Shown piece by piece: positions 1-54,910 of a DNA stretch of 64,000 bases. This DNA comes from an uncultured bacterium (lineage in GTDB: Bacteria > Omnitrophota > Omnitrophia > Omnitrophales > Aquincolibacteriaceae). Location of the stretch: positions 104,063 through 168,062 of the forward strand of contig CAYZYT010000004.1 of assembly GCA_964482725.1 (NCBI GenBank). Reading direction: 5' to 3'. Below the pieces are notes generated by a model. It saw only the letters and a program-made list of their open reading frames with translations. It had not been told where the DNA came from and searched no databases. Within the stretch, counting starts at the first letter, position 1. Every line of letters begins with the position of its first letter. A program made the position numbers and the translations under genes.

Positions 1-225
1 CCAGGATTTCCCCGCGCCGGTTTCAAAAATTTTATGCTCCGAAGCGACGAGAAATTTTGTCGGATCAAGCGGATGGATTGTGAGGCAGGTGAGGGTGCCG
101 CCTGCCATGGAGGGCTGAAGTGGCTTTTGCCACTCCGCAGGGGCTGGCATTTGGAACATCAAAAGACAGAAAAGCGACAAAACAACTCCGGCGACCAACG
201 TTTTCTTTCTGATTTTCAGCATGGG
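1..225 (-). CDS. 5' end of a secreted hypothetical protein that runs off the window. N-terminus reads MLKIRKKTLVAGVVLSLFCLLMFQMPAPAEW...
   Basis: Reverse-strand reading from an ATG at 223-225 has an AAGGAG RBS 8 nt upstream and a signal-peptide-like N-terminus. The frame stays open to the window edge. It was not in the ORF track because it is truncated. Confidence 0.4.
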
Positions 226-540: not shown

Positions 541-3500
541 ATGAGGGAGAGCTCTATTTTAAAACGAGTGATTAGCCTGGTCGTCGTTGTTTGCTTCCTG
601 ACAACGAACGCGATGGCTATGCCTGGTCAAACCCTGGATGGAGGATGGGGGATGGCGGGTGTAGAAAAAGCAAAAGCCATCTCTGTTCCCTCTGGGCTCG
701 GAAGTGTCGTGGAAACATATGACGCCTCAAAACAGGATGGCGGAAGGCGGAGGGAGGATGGCAACAAACTAAAAACCGAAGCTCCGTCCACCATCCTCCA
801 TCCTTCCCCCAGATTTGTTATTTACATCCAAGACGCGCACGACTCGCTCGAGGCTCAGGAAAATATCGCCGCCATGGTCCGGCACTGCGTGAAGGAATAC
901 GGCGTCAAAACCGTCTACGAAGAAGGTTATGAAGGCCCGGTCCCGACCGACAAGCTCTTTGGATCGATCCAGGATCCGGTTCTTAAGGAAAAGATCTCTT
1001 ACTACCTGATGGACAAGCTCCGCATCGGCGGCGCGGAGTATGCGCATATCAATCGGGCGGCGGAGCCGCCCTCCCGGGAAACGGCTAACGATGAACGGTT
1101 AACGATGCGTTCAGCGTTCCCCGTTCCCCGTTCCCCGGAAAGCGATTTTCAGCTTGTAGGTGCCGATTCGATCAGCCTCCATCTTGAGAACATCCGCGCC
1201 TACGAGCAGGCGGCGAAGAACCGTACAGGCGTGACGCAAGACATTCAGCGTATCCGCAAAGAACTTCAGAAGCTGGCTGACAAGAATTTCCCGAAGGAAA
1301 TGAAAGAATGGTTGAAGCTCAAAGAACGGTATCAGAACGGACAGCTGCCGCTCGTTGAATACTTGGCAAGAACCATGAAAATCCGGGAGACGGATGGAGG
1401 ATGGAGGATGGCGAAGGGCGTAAAGCCAGGTTTGCCGCCATCCGCCATCCACCCTCCGGCCCCCAGCGTTGAAGCCCTCCTCTCCGGTGATCCGAAAGCC
1501 ATCAAACAGATCGATCTGATGAAATTGATCGGGGAGATCCAAGCTCTCGAGAACGAGATCGTTGAGGCAGGTCTCCCGGCAGAAAGGGACCGGAAAACGT
1601 ACGGTTACTTCGAGAGCGTCATGCTCCTTGAAAAACTCAACAAGATCGAGCTCAGCCACGAGGAATTCACGTTCCTCAAAGATTCGCTCGAAGGCCTCAA
1701 GACCGAAGATGTTGCTCGCTTTATCGCGAAGGAAACCGGTCACTCGCTCGTACTTTTCAAGTCTTGGGAAAATCTAATTGCCGATTCGATCCATTTCTAC
1801 GAGCTGGCGAAGAAGCGCGATCAGGCAATCGAGAAAATCCTGACCAAGACTACAGACGAGAGACTAGAGACCAGCGACAAAAAAAGTCTCCTGTCTCCAG
1901 TCTCCGGTCTCGAGTCTCCAAAAACCAAAGCGGATATCTCCGTTTTGGTTTTTGGGGGTTTCCACAAAGAAGCCATCAAGCGGATCCTGAAGGAAAAAGG
2001 CATCAGCTACGTCATTTTGTCACCCTCGATCGGAAATCCCAGCAAGCGGCATGAGGATTATTACCGAATGTTGATGGGCGGGGGGAGGCATTCGTTTGAA
2101 CGAATGCAGGGTATCGGAGGGAGGATGGAGGATGGAGTAAAACAGAAAACAAAAGGTTTCTCGCCCTCCGCCAACCGTGGCGAGAGCGTTTCTCGCCAAA
2201 GCACCCGCGCTCAATCCGTTTTCACGATGAACTACGGTTCCACCGTCGATCTTCTTTCCAAAACCGCCGCGCCATTCCGCAACGAACTTCGGCAGGATTT
2301 TATTTTAAAGATGGACCTCGCTATTCAGGGACGGTTCTTGAATGCCGGGGCTGAGGCCAAAGAACCGTCCCTGGTTGACAATTCTGCCAAACGCTCCGAA
2401 GTGCGGCAAATGTTGCAACAAGGCCCGGCAACCAAGCGCGACGGATTTATTTCCGCAGCCTGGAAAAAGCAGCGGGCGAAGCTCCTGCAAAGCGCCAATT
2501 ACCGGCTGCTGGAATACATGATTCACCAGACCGACCTTTCCGAGCGTCAGAAAAAAGGGTACCTCTATCTTTGGGAAACGATGATGCTTTTGATCCCGCT
2601 CACCAACGGAGTCAAGATCCCCGCAAGCGCTTGGGCGGTGTCTTTGGCGATCGCTCATCCTGCTTTTACGATCCTTCCGGCGATCATTTGGTGCACCTTG
2701 AGTTCGGTCCTTCGCGCCATTTTTGTGATACCGCCTTTCGCTTTTTACTATCGCTTCAGGGTCAGGGAGCTCGTGCTGGCGAACTTTCTTCCGTTCGGCG
2801 CCGCTTTTGTCGCCGTGCCGACGCAGGTGCTTGCGATCATGCGCGAAGAATACAAGCGGTTCGGGGACCTGTCTTTTAAACAGCTGGCGAAGCTTCACGA
2901 GACCGTGATCCGAAAAGTTCTTGAGGAAAATCCCAAGGATGAAGCGCTGCTCGCGCGGACTCCGGAGCTGACTTTCCGGCTGCTCGAATGGCGTTCCCGG
3001 AAGTACGGGGCCGATGCGGCAAAAGCGCTGCTGCTTCCGGCAAGGCTCACGGACCTTCTTCAAGAGGCTGACCCGAGCAAAGCTGCGTTGTCTGCACAAC
3101 GAGCAACGGCGTTAGCGAAAACGGTCATCTTCTTTCCTCCGTCAGGGTTTCACCAGGCCGGCTCAAGGGGGAGCGCTCTTTATGAAAATTCCGCGACCAT
3201 CAAGCGGCTTTACGAGAGAGTCAATCAAAAGGCGCGGGAAATTCTCGGGGATCCTGCCTTCGATATTTTTGACGTTTCCTTCAACCAGACCGAAGAGGAT
3301 TATTTGCGGGGTAACAATGCCGTCGCGGTGCATCTGGCCATTGCAACCCATCACATGGCCTTATGGGAAAGCCTGAAGGAAAAATATCCGGAAGCCGGCC
3401 GGCCCGGAGCGGTTCTTGGCGCGAGCCGGGGAGCGGATGCGGCCTATTATGCGAGCGGAGCGCTCGGCTTGGAAGATACCGTCGAGCTTGCGGTCCGGAA

Positions 3501-6500
3501 CATTCAGTTCTTGAAAAAAGCGTCCGAGCTTTCGGGTTCCCGGAGGATCGGAAGTGTTTCCCGTCTTTCCCGGGAAACATTGGAGGCCCTGCTAGCTCCG
3601 GAAGAAGGCGCGATCGCGGTTCAATATTCGAAAAATCTTTTCGCTGTTTCTTACAGGAAAGACTCTTTCGAAAAACTCGAACAAGATATCAAATCGGCGG
3701 GAGGCGTTCTCAGAAAAACGCTCCTCAGCGTGTCGAGCCATGATCCTCATCTTCTCACGCCGGAAACAAAGCCGCTCTTTGAAGAATACCAAGCGTTCCT
3801 CGAGGGATTTAAAGCGCGCATTCGTCTGCCCTCTCTGAAGCTTTTCTCGGCACTCGAGCCAGGGAAAGAGCTTAAGACGCCCGAAGACATCCTGAGCGAA
3901 GAGGTGCGTTACACCACCCAGGCGATTCCGCTGGACCGCTCTTTCGCCGACCTCTTGCAAGGAGCGGGACTGCAGAATGTTTTGGGGCTCGGCTATGAAA
4001 AGGATTATTTCATCCAGGCCCTTCAAAAGGAAGGGACGGTGTCCGGGGATGTTCGTGTGGCGCAAGCGGCCGACCTCGCGGATTATGGATCTTTTTGGAA
4101 TCTTTTCTCTCGGACAGAAAACGTAGGCGCAGCCGGTACCGTACGCTCCGAAGTGCGGGCCGCCAATGATCCGAAAGATATATTCGAAGGCGAGCCTCGC
4201 CTCTCCGTCGAGAGGCGGGATGGAAATGTTCTTTCAGGGGATGCCCGAACCCTCTCCGGCGGAAGGGTTTTGAGTTGGGATGAGGCCGTGCAGCACGCCC
4301 CGGAACTAGCCCGAAGGGTGGCTCTGAGCGGAGGCTTTGCCGGTTTTTTTACGCATCTTGGCAGAGCCTGGAATGATCCCTACAGGGAAATCGACCCAGC
4401 GATCGTCGAGCGTTATTTTGAAAACGTGCGAGCCTGGGGTCGCAAGGAAAATGGCGTCGTTTTCATTCTTGGCGGAGTTCCGGAAAAAATCGGCGAGCTT
4501 TTTACGCAGGCGGTGGTAATTCATATCCCCAATGTCCCTGACAACGATCCGATCCCGTTGATCGCCGGGAAGGAATCTTTTGATCCCATGGTTGAGCTGA
4601 TGAAAAAGATAGGTGTTCGCGGGATTCTTCCCTATGGCGGAGAGTATGCCCGCTTCGATGAACAAGGGCGGGTGTTACAAGGGTTTGATCCGGGGCTTGG
4701 TTGCGCAGGCGGACCGCTTTTTATTTTGAGCCGCTTTTTTGCTGTTCACGTATACCCTCAACTGCTTTTGGGAGGTTTGATCAATAAGCACTTGGGTGTG
4801 GCGGGTCTTCCACTTGAAACCGGAAAATATCTCACGGAACCCCGCTCGGAAATCCGGAATATCCCAGCAGGTTCGAAGCTTTCGCGACGGGAAGCTTTCC
4901 GGTGGGCGGCCTTATTCGATGAAGAGTTGAGTCAACGGGGACGCGCGCTCGTGTCGGCAGCGACGAAAGAAAAACTTTCCGTGAAGAGGGATACCCTTTT
5001 AGGGGGCGTGAATCGCTACAGCGCTCCGGAGAAAACCGCCATCCTTTCTTTTCGCGACAAGGATTCTCTGGGCCAGATCTATCTTCTTTTTCTGGATCGG
5101 GAAAACCGCCCCGCAGGCTATGGGTCTCTTTACAGCTCCGGAAAGGACAAGCCCGTCGTCGTATCCTTCCACATCTTTTCGGAATTCAGAGGCCGCGGGC
5201 TCGGCGAGGATTTCTGGAATGCGATCAAAAGCTTTCTCAAACAAAACGGCATGGGGTATGTCCCTGAGAAAGTTTACTTCCCGCCCGTTTCATGGTTTGC
5301 GGAGCGCGGTCTGGGGGACGATTTCAAAAATTCAGGCGTCCAGGAATTTCTGGTCAAAATGGGTTTTAAGCCTGTCGGAGTGAAGCCTTCCGCCACGCCC
5401 GGAGATGTGGCCTTTCTTTATAACTTGGGCGATGGGGAAAAGCCTCAGGCCGGAGTCGCGCGAAGTGAGGCCCGGTCTTCAAACGAAAGCCGGGAGCAGC
5501 TGACGGACGCAGGGATGGATCAATACGCCTTTTTTTACTGGAACAATAATAGTCAGTTCGATGCCATCCCGTACACGCTTGAAAAGCCGTTGTGGGAGTG
5601 GAGGGCCGGGGATATTTTTGTTGTCGAAAGCAGAGAAAAAACCGAGACCTATCTGCTTTTGGAGCAAACGGATTTTGGCGTTGTGACCTTTACTTCGCCT
5701 AGGGATTTTGGAGAGCCTGAAAGACGGAATATCCGTGAGTGGAGGATGGACTTTGGGCGAGATCTCGACCGGGGTGCCAGGATCACGGTCCGAAGGTATT
5801 ACGATGCCGGCAAGATCCCGACACTGCTCCATTTTGCGAATGAGGGACGTTTAGAGCCGGACACGCTCCGAGCTTATTACAAGCGGATCATTCTCGGGGT
5901 TTTGATTATCGCCGCGCCTCCGGTTTTGGGGCTGTATATGTTTGGCCTTTTAAAGCCGTGGTTCATCTCGATGGTTTTAGGAGTTCTGGCGCTGGCTCTT
6001 CTGGCGGGTCCCGTTCTTTTCCGATTTAAAGCGGGTAGTTTTATTTTCGATCTTAACCAAGCGCTTCCTTTCCGGATCCCGCCGCCGGGGACGAAACTTT
6101 CCAAGTTTGAATCCTGGAGAATGAATTTCCCGTCCTCTTCCGCCCGATCGGAAGCGCGTCTCTCGCGAGGGACAAGCCCGGAGCCTACGGCCGCCGGAGA
6201 ACAGGCTCTGGGAAAAGGTCCCCGGGAGGCGGAATGGCCCGAAGTCAGCCGCCAGTTCAGATCCCTGAATCCCTACAATATTCACAATATGCCGAGCGCC
6301 GTGCTTTCGGAATTGGCGTCGGAGATAGCGAACAAGTTAAACGTTTATGTTTTTGTCAGGAAAAATCACAGCGGCAAACGATGGATGAGTCAGGTTATGG
6401 AGATTTTGAGTCTGAGGATCGTTTATGACCAGGATATCGAAGTTTACGTGAAAGGTCGCCAGACTCCGGAAGTTTTAAACGCTACGTTGGACCTGGTTGA

Positions 6501-21985: not shown

Positions 21986-22157
21986 ACGTACGGCGTACGG
22001 AGTACGGCGAATAGAAAACATCTTGCATAACGCCTTACCCCGTACGCGATGCGTTCTGTGATATCCCTTAACAACATCAGGGAAATAGCGTACACTTCTC
22101 GAGCTTTTAACAACAAAGGAGGAATTCGCTCATCGCCGTACTCCGTACGCCGTACAT
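21986..22157. repeat. 25-bp near-perfect inverted repeat (24/25 match) flanking a 122-bp core, between the giant gene and ychF.
   Basis: Left arm cacgtacggcgtacggagtacggcg (21986-22010). Right arm cgccgtactccgtacgccgtacatg (22133-22157). Each arm contains a GTACGG triplet in direct repeat. The core contains ttaacaaca twice and an AAGGAGG. Confidence 0.7.
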
Positions 22158-22171
22158 GAGCGAAAGCGAAT

Positions 22172-23266
22172 ATGGGCTTCAAATGCGGTATTGTCGGTCT
22201 TCCAAACGTCGGTAAATCGACTATTTTTAATGCGATCGCCAAGGCGCATGCTGCGGCGTCCAACTATCCTTTCTGCACGATCGAACCGAACGTCGGCATG
22301 GTGCCGGTCCCGGATCCGCGTCTCTGGGAGCTGAGCAAACTCTTCAAGCCGCAAAAGACGACGCCGACTACGGTGGAATTTTATGATATCGCGGGGCTCG
22401 TCGCCGGAGCCTCCAAAGGTGAAGGCCTCGGGAACCAGTTCCTAGGGCATATAAAGGAAGTCGAAGCCATTCTCCACGTCGTCCGCTGCTTTGAGGACCC
22501 CAACATTGTGCACGTCTCGGGCACGATCGATCCTTCGCGTGATATCGATGTGATCGACACAGAGCTTTGTCTTAAGGACCTGGACACCATCAATGCCCGC
22601 TACAATAAGACCGAAAAACTGGCGAAGGCCGGCGATAAGGTGTCGAAGGAGCAAATGCCGGTCTATGAGAAAGTGAAAAAAGCGCTTGAGGACGGGACGC
22701 CGCTCCGCAATATCGGGCTGATCGAAGAAGAGAGGGCGCTTGTCAAAGATCTGGCGTTCCTGACGCTTAAAACCGTACTGTACTGCGCGAACGTTGCCGA
22801 AAAAGATCTGCCTGGCGGTGGGCCGTTCGTGAATCTGTTGCGCCAGCGCGCGGCCAAAGAGAGCGCCGAAGTGGTGGTGATCTCCGGGAAAGTCGAATCT
22901 GAATTGATCGATCTTTCCGAAGAAGATCAGCAGGTATTCCTGAAAGATTTGGGCCTTGAAGAACCGGGGTTGAATTCATTGATCCGGACCGGCTATAAAG
23001 CACTTCAGCTCATTACCTATTTTACGGCCGGTGAAAAGGAAGTGCGCGCCTGGACCGTTCGCAAAGGTTCCAAGGCGCCGCAAGCCGCGGGCGTGATCCA
23101 TTCCGATTTTGAGCGCGGGTTCATTCGCGCCGAAGTAATGAACTATGAAGATCTTCTGAAATACGGTTCCCAGGCCGCAGTCAAAGAAAAAGGTCTTCTT
23201 CGCGTCGAAGGTAAGGAATACGTGACGCAAGACGGCGATGTGATGCTTTTCCGTTTTTCAGTTTAA
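22172..23266 (+). CDS. ychF: Redox-regulated ribosome-associated ATPase YchF.
   Basis: [22 protein letters not shown]-loop and a TGS-like C-terminal domain. Confidence 0.9.
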
Positions 23267-23756: not shown

Positions 23757-26700
23757 ATGAATCTTCAAAAGATCTCAAAAGCGATCATCGCGATCAGCCT
23801 CGGGGTGTTTCTCGTTTCTCCTCAGGCTTTTTCCGAAACCTCTTCCGGCGCCTCTAAACGGTTTGTTTTATCTGCACAAGAAATGAAACTCGGGGCGACC
23901 CCCCAGCTTCTCCGAGTGGAAAACAAAAGCCCGGAAAAAACAGCCTACTCGGTCAAAGCTACGGTCCCCTGGATCACAGTCATGCCTCAGTCGGGCCAGA
24001 TCGATCCCGGATCCTTGGCTGTGATCACCGTCCAGAGGGATCCCTCTGCGAAACCGGCGAGTTCTACGCAAGCGGATATCGCGGTGGTGGTTACAGACAC
24101 GCAAAGCGGCGATGAATATAAAGCGGCGATTGTTTACGAAAGCAAGGAGGCCAAAGCGGAGCTTCGGGTTTCTCAAGGAAGTCTCGAATTTTCCGGAGTC
24201 CAAGGAAAAGCAATCGCTCCACAGAGTTTTGATATTCAAAACACCGGCAATGCGCCGCTGAATTTCAAGATTCAGTCTGGTGCGGCATGGCTCATCGTTC
24301 AGCCCGATGCCGGGACTTTGGACGCGGGGAAAGCAGCAAGGATTTCCGTAAACAGTAATCCGGAAAATATGCAGCCTGGGAAAAAAGAAGCTGTTCTGAA
24401 GATCACCAGTGACGGCGCGGCCAACAGCCCTCAGCAGGTCAAGGTGGTTGCGGCGGTGAATAAAAAACCCTCGGGAAAAAAAACAAAAGCTCCTCTCTCG
24501 GATCCCAAAACCGGAATGGTGGAACTTGCCGGAGGATTGTGGGAGAAGCGCGAAGAGGGTACGGATAAGTCGCAATACGCCCGCGGCGTTGTTCCCGGAG
24601 CGCTGAAAGGATTGGTGCTTCCGATCGGAGATGCGGACAAGGAATACTGGACTGAAACGCGGATGGGAAGCTCTGGGCATTATGACGAAGTGGAACTTAT
24701 GTATTCCCGGGAGCTTCATCTGATGGAACGGACGCCCAGAAAAGGGTATACGCCCTCTAAAATAATAGTTTGGCAGATGCATGTGGCCATGAATCTTTTC
24801 AGTCCCCGGGCCCAGTGGGGAGGGGAACCGGAACAAGAGTATATTTCCACCGCAGGCAGCTGGAGAAGTCAAGAACAGCATGGAGCTGTGCCTCAGCGGG
24901 GAGTTTCGGGGGCGGATAAAAGCTATGTCACCCAGCGCATCAACAAACAGTACGGAGCCGAAAAAACAGGGGAAAGCTGGCACTTCATTGTTTTGAAGGA
25001 CGGGGTCAGTTTCACACTAGAAGCGTCCACTTACAACGATACAGTCCAACGCTTTGGGATCGAACCCAATTTCTATCCCTGGGTCGAACAGCTCGTAAAA
25101 GAGATCTCCGCCAAGAAATGGCTTTCGATCTTCAGGCAGGGTAATTCCAAGTATGAAAAATTGCCGGATTTCATGAAACCTTTTGTCATCAATAAAGGGC
25201 TTTTGAACGCGGACGGTATCCTTTTGAGACAAGTGGGAACATCCGACTGGACCTCGCTCAGTCTCCACTATTGGACCAATGACTACAACCGTGATACCGG
25301 AGTTTATGGGCTAACGGCAAATGTGACGGTTACTTTTTATGTCCCTCGCGACAAAGGCGAGGAAATGGCGGTCCGCTTTTCGATGTTACCCGCTCAAGAC
25401 GAGTATAACGACTACTCAAAAGTTTCCTTCGGGGATGGCGGGTATAAAACCGTTAGCAAGAAATATCCGACGGACGTGAATTATTTGGTTCGCGTCGGAG
25501 CCGGTACCGTGAATGTAGGTTTGACTTCAGGGCGGACGATTTTAAATCCACCCGCGGATATTCTGGAAGAGCTCGTTGCAAAGATGCGGACGGTGGATTA
25601 TGCCGCGATCGAAGCTTATACCGGGAGTCCCGAGAGCGAGGAGGAATATGTTGAAGAAGTTTTGGATGAGGAGGCGTTTGAAGACGCGCCGCCTGCGGAC
25701 CTTGATCCAAGCTTCTGGGACCCGGGATATGACCCCGCGGTGGGCGGAGTACGCGTGGCACTGCCGGAAACACCCGGCCAACCCGCGGTTGATCCTACCA
25801 CGTATCAGCCTCAGCCCGGGGACAAGAGTACGAATGGGCTTGTTTGGTCCGGAGTTTACGGAGACTGGGTGCGGGGCGAGGTGTTTGACAACGAACAGCA
25901 GCAAAAAAAGCTCGGCCGCGTGTGGCAGGGGGATCAACGAGGCTGGGAAACTCCGTCAGAAACCAAAGAACGGGATGAGAATCTGCAGAAGTTTGAAAAA
26001 GGTAATGAGGTGGCGGATGCCGAGGAGCGTGAAAAATTAAAAAAGATCACGGATGCGATCCAGGAAGCTCGTGACAACCTTAAAAATCTCAAGGAAAAAG
26101 CCGCGAAGCGTGAAGAGCTCATGGCGAAACTGGATCAACTTGAAAAAGAACGGGAACAAGCTGAGAAAGACGCCAAGTGGAATTCCAGCGCGGTGATAAA
26201 CGCGACGGCGGAGCGGATCGCGCGGGAAGTCGCGACAGGCCAGACGGCGGAAGGGGCGACATCCTTCAAGGCGATGGGTCTGCGGATGCTCGCGGGTGTG
26301 GTGAGCGGAGGATCCTCGGAAATTGTTTACGCCTCCGCGGACGGGTGCTACCGGGTTTATGACAATCTTCTGAAAGGTGATTCCATGATGGCGGCGGTCG
26401 GCAAGACCGTGGCCACGATGGCGGCGGAAGAGGCATTTGGGCGCGCAGTGAGCGGGCTTGCGGCTTATGCCGGCAAAAAAGGATCCGAGGTTGGCCGAAA
26501 ATTGATCGGAGAAGCGGCCGAGACCGGAACGGCGAACCTGCCGAAAGGACTCGCCAAGACAAAAAATGCGGTTGAAAAAGCCCTGAAAGAAACCCCGGCC
26601 ATGAAAGAGACGGCGGCGCTCAGGAAAAAATACAGCATCAGTGCCAAGGAGGATGTGGATCTGCTCATTCAGCAGGGACGCATCAAGCCCAAGGAAGCGA

Positions 26701-27758
26701 TCAAGTTGAAACAGGCCCTCGGAGATGAAGCCGCAAAGACCCGGGAAATTCTGGCTCTTTATAAACAGGACGGCATGAAGAAACTGAGCGAGCTTGAGCG
26801 TAAAGGACATCTCGGGACGAATGAGGCCAAAAAGATCAACGATGTCGTGAGTCGCGAGGTCAACGATTCGATCGACAAAGGCGTCAAGAAAACGATGGGC
26901 GAATTTGAGGAGAAAACGGGCGTTAAAATAAAAGAGGTGATGGTGGGTGACAGCGGGTCCAGCGCGGGACGCAAAGCCCGTTCCATCAAGACGGACGCCG
27001 ACAGAACCGTGGTGGTCGATTTCGATGAAGCTTCTCTTAAAGCCTATGCGGATAAGAACTGCAAAGGCAACGTGCAGGAGGCTTACGACAAACTATCCAA
27101 GAAGTTCGCCGCGAAGCAGGACAGTTTGGTGGCAAAAGAACTCGAGAAAAAGGGTGTTAGCGCGAAGGCTGTGGACTATAAAACTTATGACCGGTTCGGG
27201 AAGCCGGGTCTCGATGACTCCTATCCTGGGACTTTCGTGAAGACCGTTCAGGCGACGAAAGGAAAGACGACGGTTTATAAAACGGGCAAGGTACAGGACG
27301 ACGGCAAATTTTCCAAGTTTGCCGATGGGCAGGTAAAAACGGTTAAAACAAGCGGACAAACGATCGTGGATCAGGAGGCTCTTATCAATCAAAAGATCAG
27401 CGGGACAGCTGTCGTCGAAGGCCCGAAGATCGATACGGGTGAGAGCGGGGCTTTGATGGCTCAGCAGAAACAGGCCCTCGCGAAGTCCGGCGTGACGGCG
27501 GAAAAGGCGGCGAAGGCGCTTGAACGAGCCGACAAGGCCCTCGCGCTTGATGGGGCGGCGAAGAATCTGGAAATCCTGAAAGCGGGTGGCAAGGTGTCCG
27601 ATCTAATCACGACACCCCGGATCGATCCGGACCTTTTGGCGAAGGCGAAAGCCATCCGTGACAATCCGCAGCAGGTCAAACAGATCCTCGGGAATCAAAG
27701 CGAAGAGGCTTTCGTCAAGGAATTGGAAGATGCGGTGGATGGAGCTGCATCTAAATAG
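23757..27758 (+). CDS. Large secreted hypothetical protein (1,333 aa).
   Basis: Signal peptide MNLQKISKAIIAISLGVFLVSPQAFS. Two beta-rich N-terminal domains are followed by a globular region, a long charged/coiled-coil segment, and a Lys/Thr-rich C-terminal domain. Confidence 0.6.
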   Translation: MNLQKISKAIIAISLGVFLVSPQAFSETSSGASKRFVLSAQEMKLGATPQLLRVENKSPEKTAYSVKATVPWITVMPQSGQIDPGSLAVITVQRDPSAKPASSTQADIAVVVTDTQSGDEYKAAIVYESKEAKAELRVSQGSLEFSGVQGKAIAPQSFDIQNTGNAPLNFKIQSGAAWLIVQPDAGTLDAGKAARISVNSNPENMQPGKKEAVLKITSDGAANSPQQVKVVAAVNKKPSGKKTKAPLSDPKTGMVELAGGLWEKREEGTDKSQYARGVVPGALKGLVLPIGDADKEYWTETRMGSSGHYDEVELMYSRELHLMERTPRKGYTPSKIIVWQMHVAMNLFSPRAQWGGEPEQEYISTAGSWRSQEQHGAVPQRGVSGADKSYVTQRINKQYGAEKTGESWHFIVLKDGVSFTLEASTYNDTVQRFGIEPNFYPWVEQLVKEISAKKWLSIFRQGNSKYEKLPDFMKPFVINKGLLNADGILLRQVGTSDWTSLSLHYWTNDYNRDTGVYGLTANVTVTFYVPRDKGEEMAVRFSMLPAQDEYNDYSKVSFGDGGYKTVSKKYPTDVNYLVRVGAGTVNVGLTSGRTILNPPADILEELVAKMRTVDYAAIEAYTGSPESEEEYVEEVLDEEAFEDAPPADLDPSFWDPGYDPAVGGVRVALPETPGQPAVDPTTYQPQPGDKSTNGLVWSGVYGDWVRGEVFDNEQQQKKLGRVWQGDQRGWETPSETKERDENLQKFEKGNEVADAEEREKLKKITDAIQEARDNLKNLKEKAAKREELMAKLDQLEKEREQAEKDAKWNSSAVINATAERIAREVATGQTAEGATSFKAMGLRMLAGVVSGGSSEIVYASADGCYRVYDNLLKGDSMMAAVGKTVATMAAEEAFGRAVSGLAAYAGKKGSEVGRKLIGEAAETGTANLPKGLAKTKNAVEKALKETPAMKETAALRKKYSISAKEDVDLLIQQGRIKPKEAIKLKQALGDEAAKTREILALYKQDGMKKLSELERKGHLGTNEAKKINDVVSREVNDSIDKGVKKTMGEFEEKTGVKIKEVMVGDSGSSAGRKARSIKTDADRTVVVDFDEASLKAYADKNCKGNVQEAYDKLSKKFAAKQDSLVAKELEKKGVSAKAVDYKTYDRFGKPGLDDSYPGTFVKTVQATKGKTTVYKTGKVQDDGKFSKFADGQVKTVKTSGQTIVDQEALINQKISGTAVVEGPKIDTGESGALMAQQKQALAKSGVTAEKAAKALERADKALALDGAAKNLEILKAGGKVSDLITTPRIDPDLLAKAKAIRDNPQQVKQILGNQSEEAFVKELEDAVDGAASK

Positions 27759-27911
27759 GATTTTTCGATTTTTAGCGTCTAAATCGGAAAAGCGTGGCTA
27801 CAAAGCCAAACGGCACATGACACACGAAAGGCCTTTTGTCTTGGGACTTTGTCACTTTCCGCCATATCGTCATTTGACCTCCCCCCCGTTATCTGAAATA
27901 ATACCCGCCAT

Positions 27912-28598
27912 ATGAAACACAATCCTTTCTACTCTATCTATCGCGACTTTAAGGCCTGCTTCGAGCGTGATCCGGCTGCCCGGACGCCATTTGGTGCGCT
28001 CGAGGTCATTTTTCTCTATGCCGGTCTTCATGCCGTTCTTTTCTACCGATTCGCGCATGTCCTCTATAGAGTAGGGATTCCTTTCATCCCCAGGCTCATT
28101 TCCCAGATCGCCCGGTTTCTGACCGGGGTGGAGATCCATCCGGGAGCTAAGATCGCTCCTGGATTTTTTATTGATCACGGGATGGGCGTGGTGATCGGTG
28201 AGACGACAGAGATCGGCGAGAATGTGACGATCTATCAGGGCGTAACGCTCGGGGGGACGGGGAAAGAGCGCGGCAAACGCCATCCCACACTTGGTCATAA
28301 CGTGGTGGTGGGCGTGGGTGCCAAGGTCCTCGGAAATATCAAGATCGGGGACCATGTGAAGATCGGAGGAGGATCGGTCGTGATCCACTCAGTGCCGGAT
28401 CATTGCACTGTGGTCGGCGTTCCGGCCGAGATCGTTCGCATTGACGGTCAAAAAGTTGAAGAGGTCGATCTTGAGCACGGCGATCTGCCGGACCCTGTAA
28501 GAGAGCTCAAGAATCGCGTTCGTGAACTTCAAAAAGAAGTCGAATCCCTTGAAGCGCATCATAAAGGGCAAAATCTTAAAAAGCCGGGAAACGGATAA
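27912..28598 (+). CDS. cysE: Serine O-acetyltransferase.
   Basis: Hexapeptide-repeat core [38 protein letters not shown] and an N-terminal SATase helix domain. Confidence 0.85.
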
Positions 28599-28668
28599 CG
28601 GATGGCGGATGGCGAAAAGCAAAAAACAAAAGGTTTGACGCCATCCTCCATCCGCCATCCTCCATCCG
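28599..28668 (+). repeat. GGATGG/CCATCC hairpin element, copy D, at the cysE-rnhA junction. It supplies the rnhA ATG and the first ~22 codons.
   Basis: cggatggcggatggcg-aaaagcaaaaaacaaaaggtttga-cgccatcctccatccgccatcctccatccg. Translated MADGEKQKTKGLTPSSIRHPPSG. Confidence 0.7.
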
Positions 28669-29075
28669 GAAGGAAAGGCAAGATCTACTCCGACGGGGGG
28701 GCGCGCGGAAATCCGGGGCCCGCGGCGATCGGCGTGCTAGTTTGTGATGAGAAGGACCACCGGCTGAGCGATCATGGCGAAACGATTGGGGATGCGACCA
28801 ACAATGTTGCGGAATACACGGCGGTGGTCCGGGGCTTGACCCTGGCGGCGGAATTGGGTATCTCCGAAGCGGATTATTTCTTGGATAGCGAACTTGTCGC
28901 GCGCCAACTTTCCGGAATTTATAGGCTCAAGGCCGAGCATCTCAAGCCTTTCTTCAATCAGGTCAAAGAACTTGAAAAGAAGTTCAAACGCATCACCTAT
29001 TTTCATGTTCCGCGCGAGCATCCGAAGATCAAGTATGTTGATCGGCTCGTGAATCTCGCGCTTGACCGGGAGTAA
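28602..29075 (+). CDS. rnhA: Ribonuclease HI.
   Basis: KIYSDGGARGNPGPAAIGVL ... NNVAEYTAVVRGL (DEDD RNase H fold). The start codon lies inside the hairpin repeat, copy D. Confidence 0.8.
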   Translation: MADGEKQKTKGLTPSSIRHPPSGRKGKIYSDGGARGNPGPAAIGVLVCDEKDHRLSDHGETIGDATNNVAEYTAVVRGLTLAAELGISEADYFLDSELVARQLSGIYRLKAEHLKPFFNQVKELEKKFKRITYFHVPREHPKIKYVDRLVNLALDRE

Positions 29076-29078
29076 TAC

Positions 29079-29426
29079 GTGGCCACGGCGCTCATCGGGA
29101 TCCTCGGCGGCTTTCTCAGCGGGCTTTTCGGGGTCGGCGGCGGGGTTATCTTTGTGCCGCTTCTGATGCTTCTTAAAGGATTCGATATTCATCGTGCGGT
29201 TGGGACATCGCTTCTGATCATTATTTTTACGGCGCTTTCGGGAGCATTCTTTCACGGGAAAGCGGGGATGGTGGATTGGAAAGCCGCAGTGATCCTGGGG
29301 ATTTTCAGCGTGCTCGGCGTTTGGCTCGGAACCAAGCTTTCACTCAAGCTTGATGCCGTCATGCTCCAGCGTTTTTTCGCGATATTTTTAGTGGCCGTTG
29401 CGATCAAGATTTTTTTCTTTAAGTGA
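29079..29426 (+). CDS. Half-length, single-repeat TauE/SafE-family membrane protein (115 aa).
   Basis: GILGGFLSGLFGVGGGVIFVPLLM is the TauE/SafE signature. Typical members are ~250 aa with two such repeats. Confidence 0.6.
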   Translation: MATALIGILGGFLSGLFGVGGGVIFVPLLMLLKGFDIHRAVGTSLLIIIFTALSGAFFHGKAGMVDWKAAVILGIFSVLGVWLGTKLSLKLDAVMLQRFFAIFLVAVAIKIFFFK

Positions 29427-29541
29427 CGCCAAGGGCGTCATCCCCGAATGGTGGAGTCGGGGATTCACGTTCTGGATTCCCGCCCGAGGCATGCGGGAAT
29501 GATAAAAAGGGGAATTATTTCAACCTAAGGGAGATGAATAC

Positions 29542-54873: not shown

Positions 54874-54910
54874 TGCAGGGACGGTTCTCCCGAAAGAGAA
54901 CCGTCCCTGA
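54874..54910 (+). terminator. Hairpin terminator after the porin gene.
   Basis: gggacggttctc-ccgaaa-gagaaccgtccc. Confidence 0.5.

What the first reader, a model, noticed from the sequence alone, without database searches (positions are those of the whole stretch)
28599..28668. The same hairpin element forms the start codon and first ~22 codons of rnhA
Copy D, the best-preserved of the four, sits exactly between the cysE stop (28596-98) and the RNase HI core (KIYSDGG...). Its left arm contributes the only in-frame start (ATGGCGGATGGCG). The result is an N-terminal MADGEKQKTKGLTPSSIRHPPS. This peptide mirrors those encoded in the giant gene. A mobile palindrome appears to have captured or remodelled a housekeeping gene start. 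It may also act as a cysE terminator or attenuator.
Basis: seen in the sequence. Interest (0 to 1): 0.55.

Follow-up and report, generated by a model that had tools for sequence, protein, structure and literature searches.

The report
Repeat hairpin supplies rnhA start codon
In this Omnitrophota genome, a repeated hairpin made of 7-base units bridges two housekeeping genes, providing the stop codon of cysE and the start codon plus first 22 codons of an RNase H gene whose original start is gone; this is a clear but not unprecedented case of selfish-looking repeat DNA becoming essential gene sequence.

Summary
A strong hairpin (-43.7 kcal/mol, z -6.4) spans 28584-28669. Its arms are tandem heptamers, (CGGATGG)n and (CKCCATC)n. 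It belongs to the same family as at least four copies inserted in frame in the giant gene.

It overlaps the last codons and the TAA of cysE. It also contains the only in-frame ATG (28602) upstream of the RNase H core.

Most of 120 homologues are 137-140 aa and start MKKGKIYSDGG. In the window, and in every relative with a GGATG-type hairpin, that ancestral ATG is gone (GGA, ATA, GCT, GTT, GTG, GCG). The core is still under strong purifying selection (dN/dS 0.03-0.10), so translation must start inside the element.

Read in frame, the heptamer array gives TGG-CGG-ATG. One G-to-A change therefore makes stop-3 nt-start. This layout recurs in five diverged genomes, and a sixth has an ATGA overlap.

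The AUG is buried in the stem, so I infer that ribosomes finishing cysE reinitiate on rnhA (translational coupling). There is no T-run, so it is not a terminator.

The closest known kinds are cyanobacterial STRR heptamer hairpins and Rickettsia palindromic elements. I rate it a new variant of a known kind, of moderate interest.

The parts
27912..28598 (+). cysE (serine O-acetyltransferase). Its last 4-5 codons (..P G N G) and its TAA stop (28596-28598) lie inside the left arm of the hairpin.
   Evidence: ORF. TIGR01172 cysE equivalog, 235 bits against a cutoff of 211. The tail KKPGNG* is shared with L261, another GGATG-type junction; junctions with other or no hairpins have different cysE tails.
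28584..28614 (+). Left arm of hairpin copy D: an outer CCGG, then heptamers CGGGAAA (28585-91), CGGATAA (28592-98, contains the cysE TAA), CGGATGG (28599-605, contains the rnhA ATG 28602-04), CGGATGG (28606-12), then CG.
   Evidence: Sequence; inverted repeats I1-I4; fold; alignment to other copies.
28615..28638 (+). A-rich loop AAAAGCAAAAAACAAAAGGTTTGA. It is nearly the same as the loop of giant-gene copy C (AAAACAGAAAACAAAAGGTTT) and contains the alternative in-frame TTG (28635).
28639..28669 (+). Right arm: CGCCATC CTCCATC CGCCATC CTCCATC CGG. It encodes PSSIRHPPS.
   Evidence: Perfect 14-nt tandem D2 and the inverted repeats; fold.
28602..29075 (+). RNase H ORF (157 aa, RVT_3 / LC9-RNase H1 type). 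Residues 1-22 are encoded by the element. The core starts near residue 24-27.
   Evidence: Pfam RVT_3 covers residues 30-149 and RNase_H 27-128. PDB 3U3G aligns from its residue 5 to query residue 27. D31, E71, D95 and D147 are invariant. In the AF2 model residues 1-22 are coil with pLDDT 61-65, and the core is above 95.
28668..28673 (+). Position of the ancestral start. GGA AGG stands where element-free relatives have ATG AAA (MKKGKIY).
   Evidence: Junction comparisons. L077 has ATA, L001 GCT, L260 GTT, L259 GTG and L261 GCG at this codon.
636..699 (+). GGATG-type copy A in the giant ORF. The right arm has decayed.
735..807 (+). GGATG-type copy A2, an in-frame insertion in the giant ORF (KQDGGRRREDGNKLKTEAPSTILHPSP).
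   Evidence: Fold z -4.2. Homologue occupancy is 0-20% over these residues.
1391..1458 (+). GGATG-type copy B, an in-frame insertion (DGGWRMAKGVKPGLPPSAIHPP).
   Evidence: Fold -41.2 kcal/mol, z -4.25. Occupancy is 0 in homologues.
2116..2176 (+). GGATG-type copy C, an in-frame insertion (GGRMEDGVKQKTKGFSPSAN). The right arm has decayed.
   Evidence: Fold z -0.5. Occupancy is 0 in homologues. The loop matches that of copy D.
1075..1137 (+). Hairpin of the same architecture with another heptamer, (..AACG)n/(CGTTCCC)n, inserted in frame in the giant ORF.
   Evidence: Fold z -3.1. Occupancy is about 10% in homologues.
1854..1921 (+). Hairpin of the same architecture with the heptamer (GAGACNN)n/(GTCTCNN)n, inserted in frame in the giant ORF.
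   Evidence: Fold z -4.05. Occupancy is 0 in homologues.
21986..22050 (+). (CGTACGG)n hairpin between the giant-gene stop and ychF. The same heptamer family occupies the cysE|rnhA junction in L004, L007, L009, L016 and L138.
   Evidence: fold z -4.2.

Best explanation
Copy D belongs to a dispersed family of heptamer-periodic hairpin repeats: (GGATGGM)n, an A-rich loop, then (KCCATCC)n. It occupies the cysE|rnhA intercistronic junction.

Shown:
- The element covers 28584-28669.
- The cysE stop is a degenerate heptamer (CGGATGG changed to CGGATAA).
- The only in-frame ATG upstream of the RNase H core lies in the next heptamer.
- The ancestral start (ATG AAA AAR GG, giving MKKGKIY) has been overwritten.
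- The same layout, a stop made from the heptamer's TGG followed by CGG or AGG and then ATG, recurs in four other diverged genomes.
- The RNase H core is under strong purifying selection in these genomes.

It follows that rnhA must be translated from a start inside the element. The product carries a disordered tail of about 22 residues that is a by-product of the repeat.

Inferred:
- The AUG and the first base of the TAA are base-paired in a stem of about -44 kcal/mol, and there is no good Shine-Dalgarno sequence. Free 30S initiation should therefore be poor.
- Ribosomes terminating at the cysE stop, 3 nt upstream, have already melted the left arm and reinitiate at the AUG. This is termination-reinitiation coupling. 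It replaces the ATGA overlap or the short spacer seen in relatives without the GGATG element.
- GGATGGM is the only heptamer family seen here that carries ATG, and it does so in all three frames. All families are stop-free in six frames. This explains why only this family took over the start.
- The element probably arrived by an unknown copy-and-insert process. Once the new upstream start worked, the old ATG decayed.
For: - Hairpin and family.
- Homologue N-termini: most of 120 are 137-140 aa and start MKKGKIYSDGG or close variants. A subset has 152-168 aa with palindrome-derived extensions at exactly this site.
- DNA of the junctions, by genome:
  - window: GGATAA CGG ATG
  - L260: GGATAA CGG ATG
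  - L259: GGATGA CGG ATG
  - L003: GGATAG CGG ATG
  - L001/L011: GAATAA AGG ATG
  - L261: GG ATGA overlap
  - L077: TGA, then 15 nt, then ATG

- Called gene coordinates give the same 3-nt gap on the P0001 and P0009 contigs.
- The ancestral ATG codon is lost in all seven GGATG-type junctions. An ATG close to the core is kept in junctions with other or no hairpins: L002, L004-L010, L016, L076, L078, L081 and L138.
- dN/dS of the core is 0.03-0.10 with dS above 0.9, including pairs in which both genomes lack the old ATG.
- The catalytic DEDD residues are invariant.
- In the AF2 model residues 1-22 are coil at low pLDDT and the core is above 95.
- The AUG is paired in the minimum-free-energy and centroid structures.
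- The best SD-like match upstream of ATG 28602 is 3 nt (GGA). The best matches upstream of the downstream neighbours are only slightly longer: GGAG for tauE, AAGG for pepA.
- GGATGGC and GGATGGA arrays have ATG in all three + frames and no stops in six frames.
- Insertion nature of the family: occupancy among 50 homologues of the giant-gene N-terminus drops to 0-10% exactly over the element-encoded peptides.
Against: - There is no expression or N-terminal protein data. The start is assigned by elimination.
- An in-frame TTG (28635) and a near-cognate AUC (28683) exist. The AUC lies 8 nt after a purine-rich AAGGA.
- A paired AUG is unfavourable, so coupling is required as an auxiliary assumption.
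- No transposase, target-site duplication or terminal inverted repeat was found, so mobility is indirect.
- The same junction carries hairpins with other heptamers in genomes whose flanking proteins are 90-97% identical. The history could therefore be single insertion, repeated insertion or conversion, and it is unresolved.
- The window copy is nearly perfect although the layout is shared with a distant species. A passive decaying-insertion model does not predict this.
Confidence: 0.7

Rival explanations
1. The extension is not translated, or only partly. RnhA starts at the loop TTG (28635) or at a non-canonical codon near the core, for example AUC 28683 preceded by GGAAGGAAAGG. On this view the hairpin is only a 5' leader.
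For: The in-frame TTG and AUC exist, and AAGGA lies 8 nt upstream of AUC 28683. The AUG at 28602 is sequestered in the stem. Gene callers place some relatives' starts in the loop (MTK..., 152 aa).
Against: The TTG is not conserved in relatives. Its AAGG is only 1 nt away. The purine-rich run before AUC is simply the Lys/Gly codons KKGK, which are also present where a real ATG precedes them. In the 152-aa relatives read as DNA, the 'loop' ATG is the same stop-CGG-ATG unit. All GGATG-type junctions keep an open frame from an ATG at or next to the cysE stop, despite length changes of 57-102 nt.
Confidence: 0.15
2. The hairpin is kept mainly as an RNA-level regulatory structure between cysE and rnhA: a terminator, attenuator, processing site, mRNA stabiliser, or a REP-like brake on cysE termination. 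The coding of the N-terminus is incidental.
For: The structure is very stable. The window copy is far better preserved than expected for an old insertion. Heptamer hairpins sit at nearly every intergenic junction of this operon in relatives such as L004 and L016. STRR hairpins between cyanobacterial genes have been proposed to stabilise transcripts or couple translation (PMC2670836).
Against: There is no T-run after the stem, and the terminator scan finds nothing here. Termination at this point would abolish rnhA, whose start lies inside the stem. In L001, L077, L259 and L260 the hairpin has decayed (z -2.4 to -3.1) while the stop/start layout and open frame persist. Rfam gives only sub-threshold miRNA-like noise. 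This rival is partly compatible with the best explanation.
Confidence: 0.2
3. There is no mobile element. The hairpin arose in place by heptamer slippage plus intrastrand template switching at a pre-existing intergenic stem. The similarity to the giant-gene copies reflects convergence or gene conversion.
For: Arms vary in unit number, and a perfect 14-nt tandem lies in the right arm. Orthologous junctions carry different heptamers in related genomes. No transposase, TSD or TIR was found.
Against: Loops, not only arms, are shared between copies at unrelated loci. Copies C and D share AAAAC/GCAAAAAACAAAAGGTTT, and the CGTACGG copies share GCTTTTCG/GCTTTCAC loops. Copies interrupt conserved protein sequence exactly where homologues have no residues. 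The same heptamer families recur across genomes and loci.
Confidence: 0.1
4. cysE and rnhA are expressed as one fusion protein by stop-codon readthrough, since they are in the same frame and separated only by TAA-CGG. Alternatively, rnhA is a dying gene.
For: cysE and rnhA share a frame in the window, L001, L003, L259, L260 and L077.
Against: The stop is TAA, TAG or TGA in different genomes with no conserved readthrough context. L261 uses an out-of-frame ATGA overlap. The core has dN/dS of 0.03-0.10 and intact DEDD residues, which argues against a pseudogene.
Confidence: 0.03

Closest known systems
Cyanobacterial STRR (short tandemly repeated repetitive) heptamer hairpins, for example between hupS and hupL
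   Same: Both have 7-bp tandem units arranged so that they fold into a hairpin, and both sit between co-transcribed genes. Their proposed roles are transcript stability or translational coupling (PMC2670836). From my own knowledge, Vioque 1997 reported STRRs inside the RNase P RNA gene, so they can also sit inside functional genes; that paper was only seen as a reference title.
   Different: The phylum differs (Omnitrophota). The heptamers differ: STRR1-3 (sequences recalled from memory) and TAACTGA are absent as tandems. Here the units are stop-free in six frames and are found in frame inside protein-coding sequence. One copy supplies a stop codon, a start codon and 22 codons of a housekeeping gene, which was not reported for STRRs in the papers I could read.
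Rickettsia palindromic elements (RPEs)
   Same: Both are palindromic repeats that insert in frame into unrelated protein-coding genes and add a conserved peptide tolerated by the host protein (review PMC10969869). The giant-gene copies behave this way.
   Different: RPEs are about 100-150 bp, occur in defined sequence families and have no heptamer periodicity. Here the elements are 60-85 bp, the family is defined by architecture with several unrelated heptamers, and this copy replaces a start codon rather than inserting internally.
REP / BIME / REPIN elements mobilised by RAYT transposases
   Same: Both are short, abundant, species-specific imperfect palindromes at intercistronic and 3' positions of operons. 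From my own knowledge (Liang, Rudd and Deutscher 2015), a REP close to a stop codon can affect translation of the upstream gene.
   Different: No GTAG or CGTC tag, no RAYT in the window, arms built of heptamers, and copies inside ORFs.
TAACTGA heptamer direct repeats of Beggiatoaceae and cyanobacteria
   Same: Both are heptamer tandem arrays concentrated just upstream of start codons, sometimes overlapping the stop of the upstream gene, often without an SD. Horizontal spread is suspected with no known mechanism (PMC4679880).
   Different: Those are direct repeats, not hairpins, and they encode stops in all three forward frames, so they cannot be read through. The elements here are inverted arrays and stop-free.
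Mycobacterial MIRUs (from my own knowledge: Supply et al. 1997)
   Same: Both are intercistronic repeats whose reading frame abuts or overlaps the stop and start codons of the flanking genes, which suggests translational coupling.
   Different: MIRUs are 40-100 bp direct tandem units, not hairpins. They encode separate mini-ORFs rather than becoming the N-terminus of the downstream protein.

Membership tests
STRR-type heptamer hairpin | Arms made of tandem 7-nt units | tested here: met
   Period-7 runs occur in both arms of copy D and of the other copies.
STRR-type heptamer hairpin | Inverted arrays able to fold into a stem-loop | tested here: met
   -43.7 kcal/mol, z -6.4 for copy D. Six further window elements were folded: five score z -3.1 to -4.25, and copy C only -0.5.
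STRR-type heptamer hairpin | Canonical STRR unit sequences (CCCCAGT, TTGGTCA, CAACAGT; recalled from memory) | tested here: not met
   No tandem copy of any of them in the window.
STRR-type heptamer hairpin | Host range: heterocyst-forming or filamentous cyanobacteria | tested here: not met
   The closest relatives are all Candidatus Omnitrophota MAGs.
Rickettsia palindromic element | Palindromic repeat inserted in frame in protein-coding genes, absent from homologues | tested here: met
   Occupancy drops to 0-10% over five element-encoded peptides in the giant gene. The rnhA extension is absent from most homologues.
Rickettsia palindromic element | Sequence similarity to RPE-1..10, about 100-150 bp, Rickettsia host | tested here: not met
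   The size criterion fails: elements are 60-85 bp. The host criterion fails: relatives are Omnitrophota. Sequence similarity to RPE consensus sequences was not tested directly. Rfam gives no match.
REP/REPIN (RAYT-mobilised) | 20-40 nt palindrome with a 5' GTAG or CGTC tag | tested here: not met
   The arms begin CGGATGG or CCGG and no such tag is present.
REP/REPIN (RAYT-mobilised) | Cognate RAYT (Y1 transposase) in the genome | tested here: inconclusive
   None of the 25 window ORFs scanned against Pfam is a transposase. Only 64 kb of the genome is available.
MITE | Terminal inverted repeats derived from an IS, plus a target-site duplication | tested here: not met
   No direct repeat flanks copies A2, B, C or D. 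The only shared flank is a palindromic CCGG at copy D.
Intrinsic (Rho-independent) terminator | GC-rich stem followed by a T-run | tested here: not met
   The sequence after the stem is GGAAGGAAAGGCAAG, and the scan reports no terminator here.
Type 1 RNase H (RVT_3 / LC9-RNase H1-like) | RNase H fold with DEDD catalytic residues | tested here: met
   Pfam RVT_3 E = 2.8e-18. PDB 3U3G E = 1.4e-27. D31, E71, D95 and D147 are invariant. AF2 core pLDDT is above 95.
Translationally coupled gene pair | Stop of the upstream gene overlapping, or within a few nt of, the downstream start | tested here: met
   A 3-nt gap in the window, L001, L003, L259, L260 and on the P0001 and P0009 contigs, and an ATGA overlap in L261.
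Translationally coupled gene pair | Downstream translation depends on upstream translation | not testable with these tools
   This needs reporter fusions or ribosome profiling.

The most novel reading that the evidence does not exclude
Omnitrophota, and possibly some other uncultured lineages and their phages, may carry an undescribed class of repeat defined by architecture rather than sequence. The features are:
- Hairpins whose arms are tandem heptamers, with 5 conserved and 2 variable positions, always stop-free in six frames.
- Turnover at fixed intercistronic sites and in-frame insertion into proteins.
- Mobilisation or homogenisation by an unknown structure-specific mechanism, with heptamer families specific to each genome.

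Within this class, the GGATGG family would act as a portable stop-restart cassette (TGG-CGG-ATG changed to stop-CGG-ATG). Such a cassette can rewire translational coupling and replace gene starts.
Probability: 0.35. Interest if true: 0.7.

Novelty: new variant of a known kind. Interest (0 to 1): 0.55.

Why it matters
- It documents, across several genomes, a repeat element becoming indispensable coding and translational-control sequence of a conserved housekeeping gene. The old start codon is lost, while the protein core stays under strong purifying selection.
- It gives a simple sequence-level reason why one repeat family can do this. The GGATGGM heptamer carries ATG in all three frames and a TGG that is one transition from a stop codon.
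- It has a practical consequence for annotating Omnitrophota MAGs. rnhA and cysE lengths, N-terminal extensions, small spurious ORFs and 'insertions' in giant proteins can all derive from these hairpins.
- It shows that heptamer-arm hairpins, so far discussed for cyanobacteria in the papers found, are abundant in an unrelated phylum. This makes their unknown origin and function testable by comparative genomics on the many complete Omnitrophota genomes now available.

Tried and rejected
- **Rfam scan of 27500-29500.** It gave only miRNA-precursor models at 21-31 bits against gathering scores of 60-107, which is generic hairpin noise.
- **Terminator/promoter scan.** There is no terminator at the hairpin. 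The only promoter-like site of note is upstream of cysE.
- **IMG/VR scan for GGATGGCGGATGGCG.** It returned 120 or more contigs, almost all with single hits. None of the 80 rows listed has paired + and - matches. I judge this compatible with chance for a 15-mer in a collection of that size, although I did not calculate the expected number. I treated it as uninformative about phage carriage of this family.
- **DNA for the closest extension-bearing relatives** (P0001, P0009, P0011, P0005). None was available because the samples have no file. Only gene coordinates could be used.
- **Search for a mobilising enzyme.** Twenty-five window ORFs scanned against Pfam are housekeeping, transport or signalling genes or have no hit. 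None is a transposase.
- **A single vertical insertion history.** Junction types do not follow identity of the flanking genes and dS is saturated. I could not decide between an ancient insertion with later replacement and repeated insertion or convergence.
- **A covariation test of the stem across relatives.** I did not attempt it, because heptamer register shifts make the alignment ambiguous.
- **Literature searches** for Omnitrophota plus palindromic, hairpin or heptamer repeats. They found no description, and two Omnitrophota giant-gene papers contain none of these terms.
Full report
**1. What is in the sequence**

The stretch 28584-28669 reads:
- left arm: CCGG-GAAA CGGATAA CGGATGG CGGATGG CG
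- loop: AAAAGCAAAAAACAAAAGGTTTGA
- right arm: CGCCATC CTCCATC CGCCATC CTCCATC CGG

Both arms are tandem heptamers. The arms are 86-94% complementary over 16-22 nt, and 72% over 36 nt. As RNA, 28584-28672 folds at -43.7 kcal/mol, against a shuffle mean of -21.3. That is z = -6.4, and 0 of 200 shuffles fold as well (a slightly different window gave z = -5.5). The 15-mer GGATGGCGGATGGCG with up to 2 mismatches occurs 16 times in the window against 0.33 expected.

The cysE ORF is 27912-28598. It matches the TIGR01172 cysE equivalog above its cutoff, and its TAA is at 28596-98. The RNase H ORF is 28602-29075, 157 aa.

Three refinements apply:
The cysE stop is itself a degenerate heptamer (CGGATAA for CGGATGG), and the last cysE codons (P G N G) are element sequence.
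- ATG 28602 is the only in-frame ATG before the catalytic Asp (D31, 28692). There is also an in-frame TTG at 28635, and near-cognate ATC codons at 28650 and 28683.
- The window holds at least five GGATG-type copies: A 636-699, A2 735-807, B 1391-1458, C 2116-2176, and D. It also holds hairpins of the same architecture built from other heptamers: CGTTCCC type at 1075-1137, GTCTCNN type at 1854-1921, and CGTACGG type at 21986-22050.

Copies C and D also share their loops. All copies are read in the same element frame, which gives related peptides.

**2. What the gene is**

The product is a type 1 RNase H of the RVT_3 / LC9-RNase H1 / Rv2228c-N type.
- Pfam RVT_3 covers residues 30-149.
- PDB 3U3G (140 aa) aligns from its residue 5 to query residue 27.
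- D31, E71, D95 and D147 are invariant among 38 homologues.
- An AlphaFold model has a core with pLDDT above 95 beginning at residue 24. Residues 1-22 are coil with pLDDT 61-65.

The first 22-26 residues are therefore an appendage to a complete domain.

**3. Comparative evidence on the start**

The closest relatives are Candidatus Omnitrophota MAGs, and they share the gene order ychF-cysE-rnhA-tauE-pepA.

Most of the best 120 homologues are 137-140 aa and start MKKGKIYSDGG or a near variant. A subset of 152-168 aa carries extensions at exactly this point. Their sequences are the translated arms of a GGATG-type palindrome, for example M..GGRRAEGEK..PSTIHHPxSAKKGKIY and MTDGGKQKTKSLTPSALLHPPSGKKGKIY.

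I read the DNA of 20 junctions, and they fall into two groups.

GGATG-type hairpin, where the codon aligned with the ancestral ATG is no longer ATG:

| Genome | Codon at the ancestral ATG position |
|---|---|
| window | GGA |
| L077 | ATA |
| L001/L011 | GCT |
| L260 | GTT |
| L259 | GTG |
| L261 | GCG |
| L003 | CGG/AAG region |

Each of these keeps an open frame back to an ATG at or next to the cysE stop.

Other hairpin or no hairpin, where an ATG close to the core is retained:
- CGTACGG type: L004, L007, L009, L016, L138
- CAACG type: L006, with remnants in L002 (L079 and L080 have the same junction) and L010
- CACAAAG type: L078
- little or no hairpin: L005, L008, L076, L081

The RNase H core is under strong purifying selection, including between genomes that both lack the old ATG. 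dN/dS is 0.03-0.10 with dS of 0.9-1.8. A conserved, catalytically intact protein without its ancestral start must be translated from the element.

**4. Why this heptamer, and how it probably works**

Read in the frame used here, a (GGATGGC)n array is GGA TGG CGG ATG GCG GAT GGC. It contains a TGG that is one transition from a stop codon, followed by CGG and then ATG.

The junctions are:

| Genome | Junction |
|---|---|
| window | GGA TAA CGG ATG |
| L260 | GGA TAA CGG ATG |
| L259 | GGA TGA CGG ATG |
| L003 | GGA TAG CGG ATG |
| L001 | GAA TAA AGG ATG |
| L261 | GG ATGA overlap |
| L077 | TGA, 15 nt, then ATG |

Gene coordinates give the same 3-nt gap on the P0001 and P0009 contigs.

GGATGGM arrays carry ATG in all three forward frames and no stop in any of six frames. 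The other six heptamer families are also stop-free but lack ATG. Half of all possible heptamers are stop-free as arrays, so seven out of seven has a chance of 0.008. This explains why only the GGATG family took over the start, while CGTACGG or CAACG hairpins at the same site left the old ATG in use.

In the predicted structure, the AUG and the first base of the TAA are paired in the stem. The best Shine-Dalgarno-like match upstream is 3 nt, against 4 nt upstream of tauE (GGAG) and pepA (AAGG).

From established knowledge of termination-reinitiation in bacterial operons, I infer the following. Ribosomes finishing cysE melt the left arm and restart 3 nt downstream, so RnhA synthesis is tied to CysE synthesis. 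Relatives without the element have an ATGA overlap (L008, L076) or a spacer of 17-21 nt (L081, L002), so coupling would be an ancestral property that the element preserved. This step is inference and has not been shown.

**5. Terminator or attenuator?**

No T-run follows the stem (GGAAGGAAAGGCAAG), and the scan finds no terminator there. Termination at this point would also remove the rnhA start.

A REP-like effect on cysE termination or on mRNA stability cannot be excluded. In L001, L077, L259 and L260 the stem has decayed (z -2.4 to -3.1), while the stop/start layout and the open frame persist. The coding and start function is therefore the conserved part. The near-perfect stem in the window remains unexplained.

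**6. Is it an inserted, mobile element?**

Fifty homologues of the giant protein's N-terminal 620 residues (33-53% identity) were aligned. Their occupancy falls to 0-10% exactly over the peptides encoded by hairpins A2, B, C and the two hairpins with other heptamers. These are lineage-specific in-frame insertions in a conserved domain. Other homologues carry other inserts at the A2 site.

In relatives, heptamer-arm hairpins occur at 0.15 per kb, against 0.027 per kb in unrelated rnhA loci. Shuffled sequence gave 1 hit. L016 carries 5 in 6.4 kb, and L004 has 6 detections at 4 distinct sites in 6.4 kb. In L016 they sit at the ychF|cysE, cysE|rnhA and rnhA|tauE junctions. L001 has a GGATGG hairpin at ychF|cysE as well.

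Copies of one family share loop sequence across loci and genomes. This argues for copying from a common source rather than independent local origin.

Against a classical MITE, I found no target duplication, no terminal inverted repeats and no transposase in the window.

The history at this junction is unresolved. Junction type does not follow flanking-gene identity. The window is 92-97% identical in YchF and CysE to L004 (CGTACGG), L078 (CACAAAG) and L077 (GGATG), and 95% and 88% to L006 (CAACG). Yet it shares both element ends (CGGG.AA...CCCGGAAG) with L003, whose RnhA core is only 69% identical. Synonymous sites are saturated. An old insertion with later replacement, repeated insertion at a hot spot, and gene conversion all remain possible.

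**7. Comparison with known systems**

- *Architecture.* The closest match is the cyanobacterial STRR. These are 7-bp tandem repeats that can form hairpins between genes such as hupS and hupL, with proposed roles in transcript stability or translational coupling (PMC2670836). The canonical STRR units and the Beggiatoa TAACTGA unit are absent, and the host phylum differs.
- *Behaviour inside proteins.* The closest match is the Rickettsia palindromic elements, which insert in frame into many genes (PMC10969869). Size, sequence and periodicity all differ.
- *TAACTGA repeats.* They also sit just upstream of starts and overlap upstream stops. They are direct repeats with stops in all forward frames (PMC4679880).
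- *REP/REPIN membership.* This fails on the tag, and no RAYT was found.
- *Rfam.* It has no matching family.

I found no description of such elements in Omnitrophota. Two dedicated Omnitrophota genome papers contain no mention of hairpins, palindromes or heptamers.

**8. Verdict**

- The element spans the whole junction.
- It supplies the stop of cysE and the start and N-terminal tail of RnhA.
- It has replaced the ancestral start.
- It probably works through translational coupling.

It is a new variant of known kinds, combining STRR-like architecture with RPE-like coding insertion. Its interest is moderate. It would be higher if the heptamer hairpins prove to be a distinct mobile system defined by architecture.

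Noticed in passing
L004, L007, L009, L016, L138 (about 2900-2990 in each 6.4-kb locus; about 935-1010 in the 1086-nt L138); L006 2880-2960; L078 2882-2959; L002 5925-6000: The same cysE|rnhA junction holds hairpins of identical architecture but different heptamers in related genomes: CGTACGG, CAACGNN and CACAAAG. The cysE stop is often made inside the left arm, for example CGTAAGG. Each genome tends to reuse its own heptamer family at several junctions.
   Followed up: partly
window 22100-22175: A strong Shine-Dalgarno sequence, AAAGGAGGAA (22117-26), lies 45 nt upstream of the ychF ATG (22172). Between them, a stem TTCGCTCAT/ATGAGCGAA encloses a block of CGCCGTA heptamers. Folding could bring the SD to a normal distance from the start.
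   Followed up: no
window 23757-27758: A 1333-aa ORF with BACON/MSP/Ig-like domains sits between ychF and cysE. In every relative fetched, ychF is followed directly by cysE, so this is a lineage-specific insertion of about 4.6 kb.
   Followed up: no
window 2326-2373, 21602-21655, 54876-54909: A second palindrome family, CAGGGACGGTTCTY / RAGAACCGTCCCTG, with 14-23 nt arms. Two copies lie inside the giant ORF and one lies after the porin-like ORF.
   Followed up: no
window 1918-1955: A 17-nt palindrome, CCAAAAACCAAAGCGGA / TCCGTTTTGGTTTTTGG, lies immediately after the GTCTC-type hairpin inside the giant ORF.
   Followed up: no
window 27874-27912: A promoter-like site TTGACC-17-(TG)AATAAT ends 9 nt before the cysE ATG, and no SD is present. 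cysE may be leaderless or nearly so.
   Followed up: no
window 29079-29426: The TauE-family ORF is only 115 aa and matches only the C-terminal half of the Pfam model (positions 130-236 of 237). Relatives have the same half-size gene (115-123 aa).
   Followed up: no
L034 511-594, L102 29-102, L014 6288-6342, L214 9968-10061, L218 5123-5774 and 9658-9744: Heptamer-arm hairpins of the same architecture also occur in Gammaproteobacteria and Patescibacteria MAGs, and in IMG/VR viral contigs. One viral contig has four TCAGAGG-type copies. The architecture is therefore not confined to Omnitrophota.
   Followed up: no
L001 5190-5262: A GGATGG-type hairpin lies directly after the ychF stop. It had been called as part of a 47-aa ORF (5146-5289), probably a spurious gene created by the stop-free repeat.
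   Followed up: partly
window 541-21984: A 7147-aa giant ORF. All six of its heptamer hairpins lie in the first 1.7 kb, within a conserved N-terminal domain (IYIQDAH motif) shared with many Omnitrophota proteins. My period-7 census found none in the remaining 19.7 kb.
   Followed up: partly
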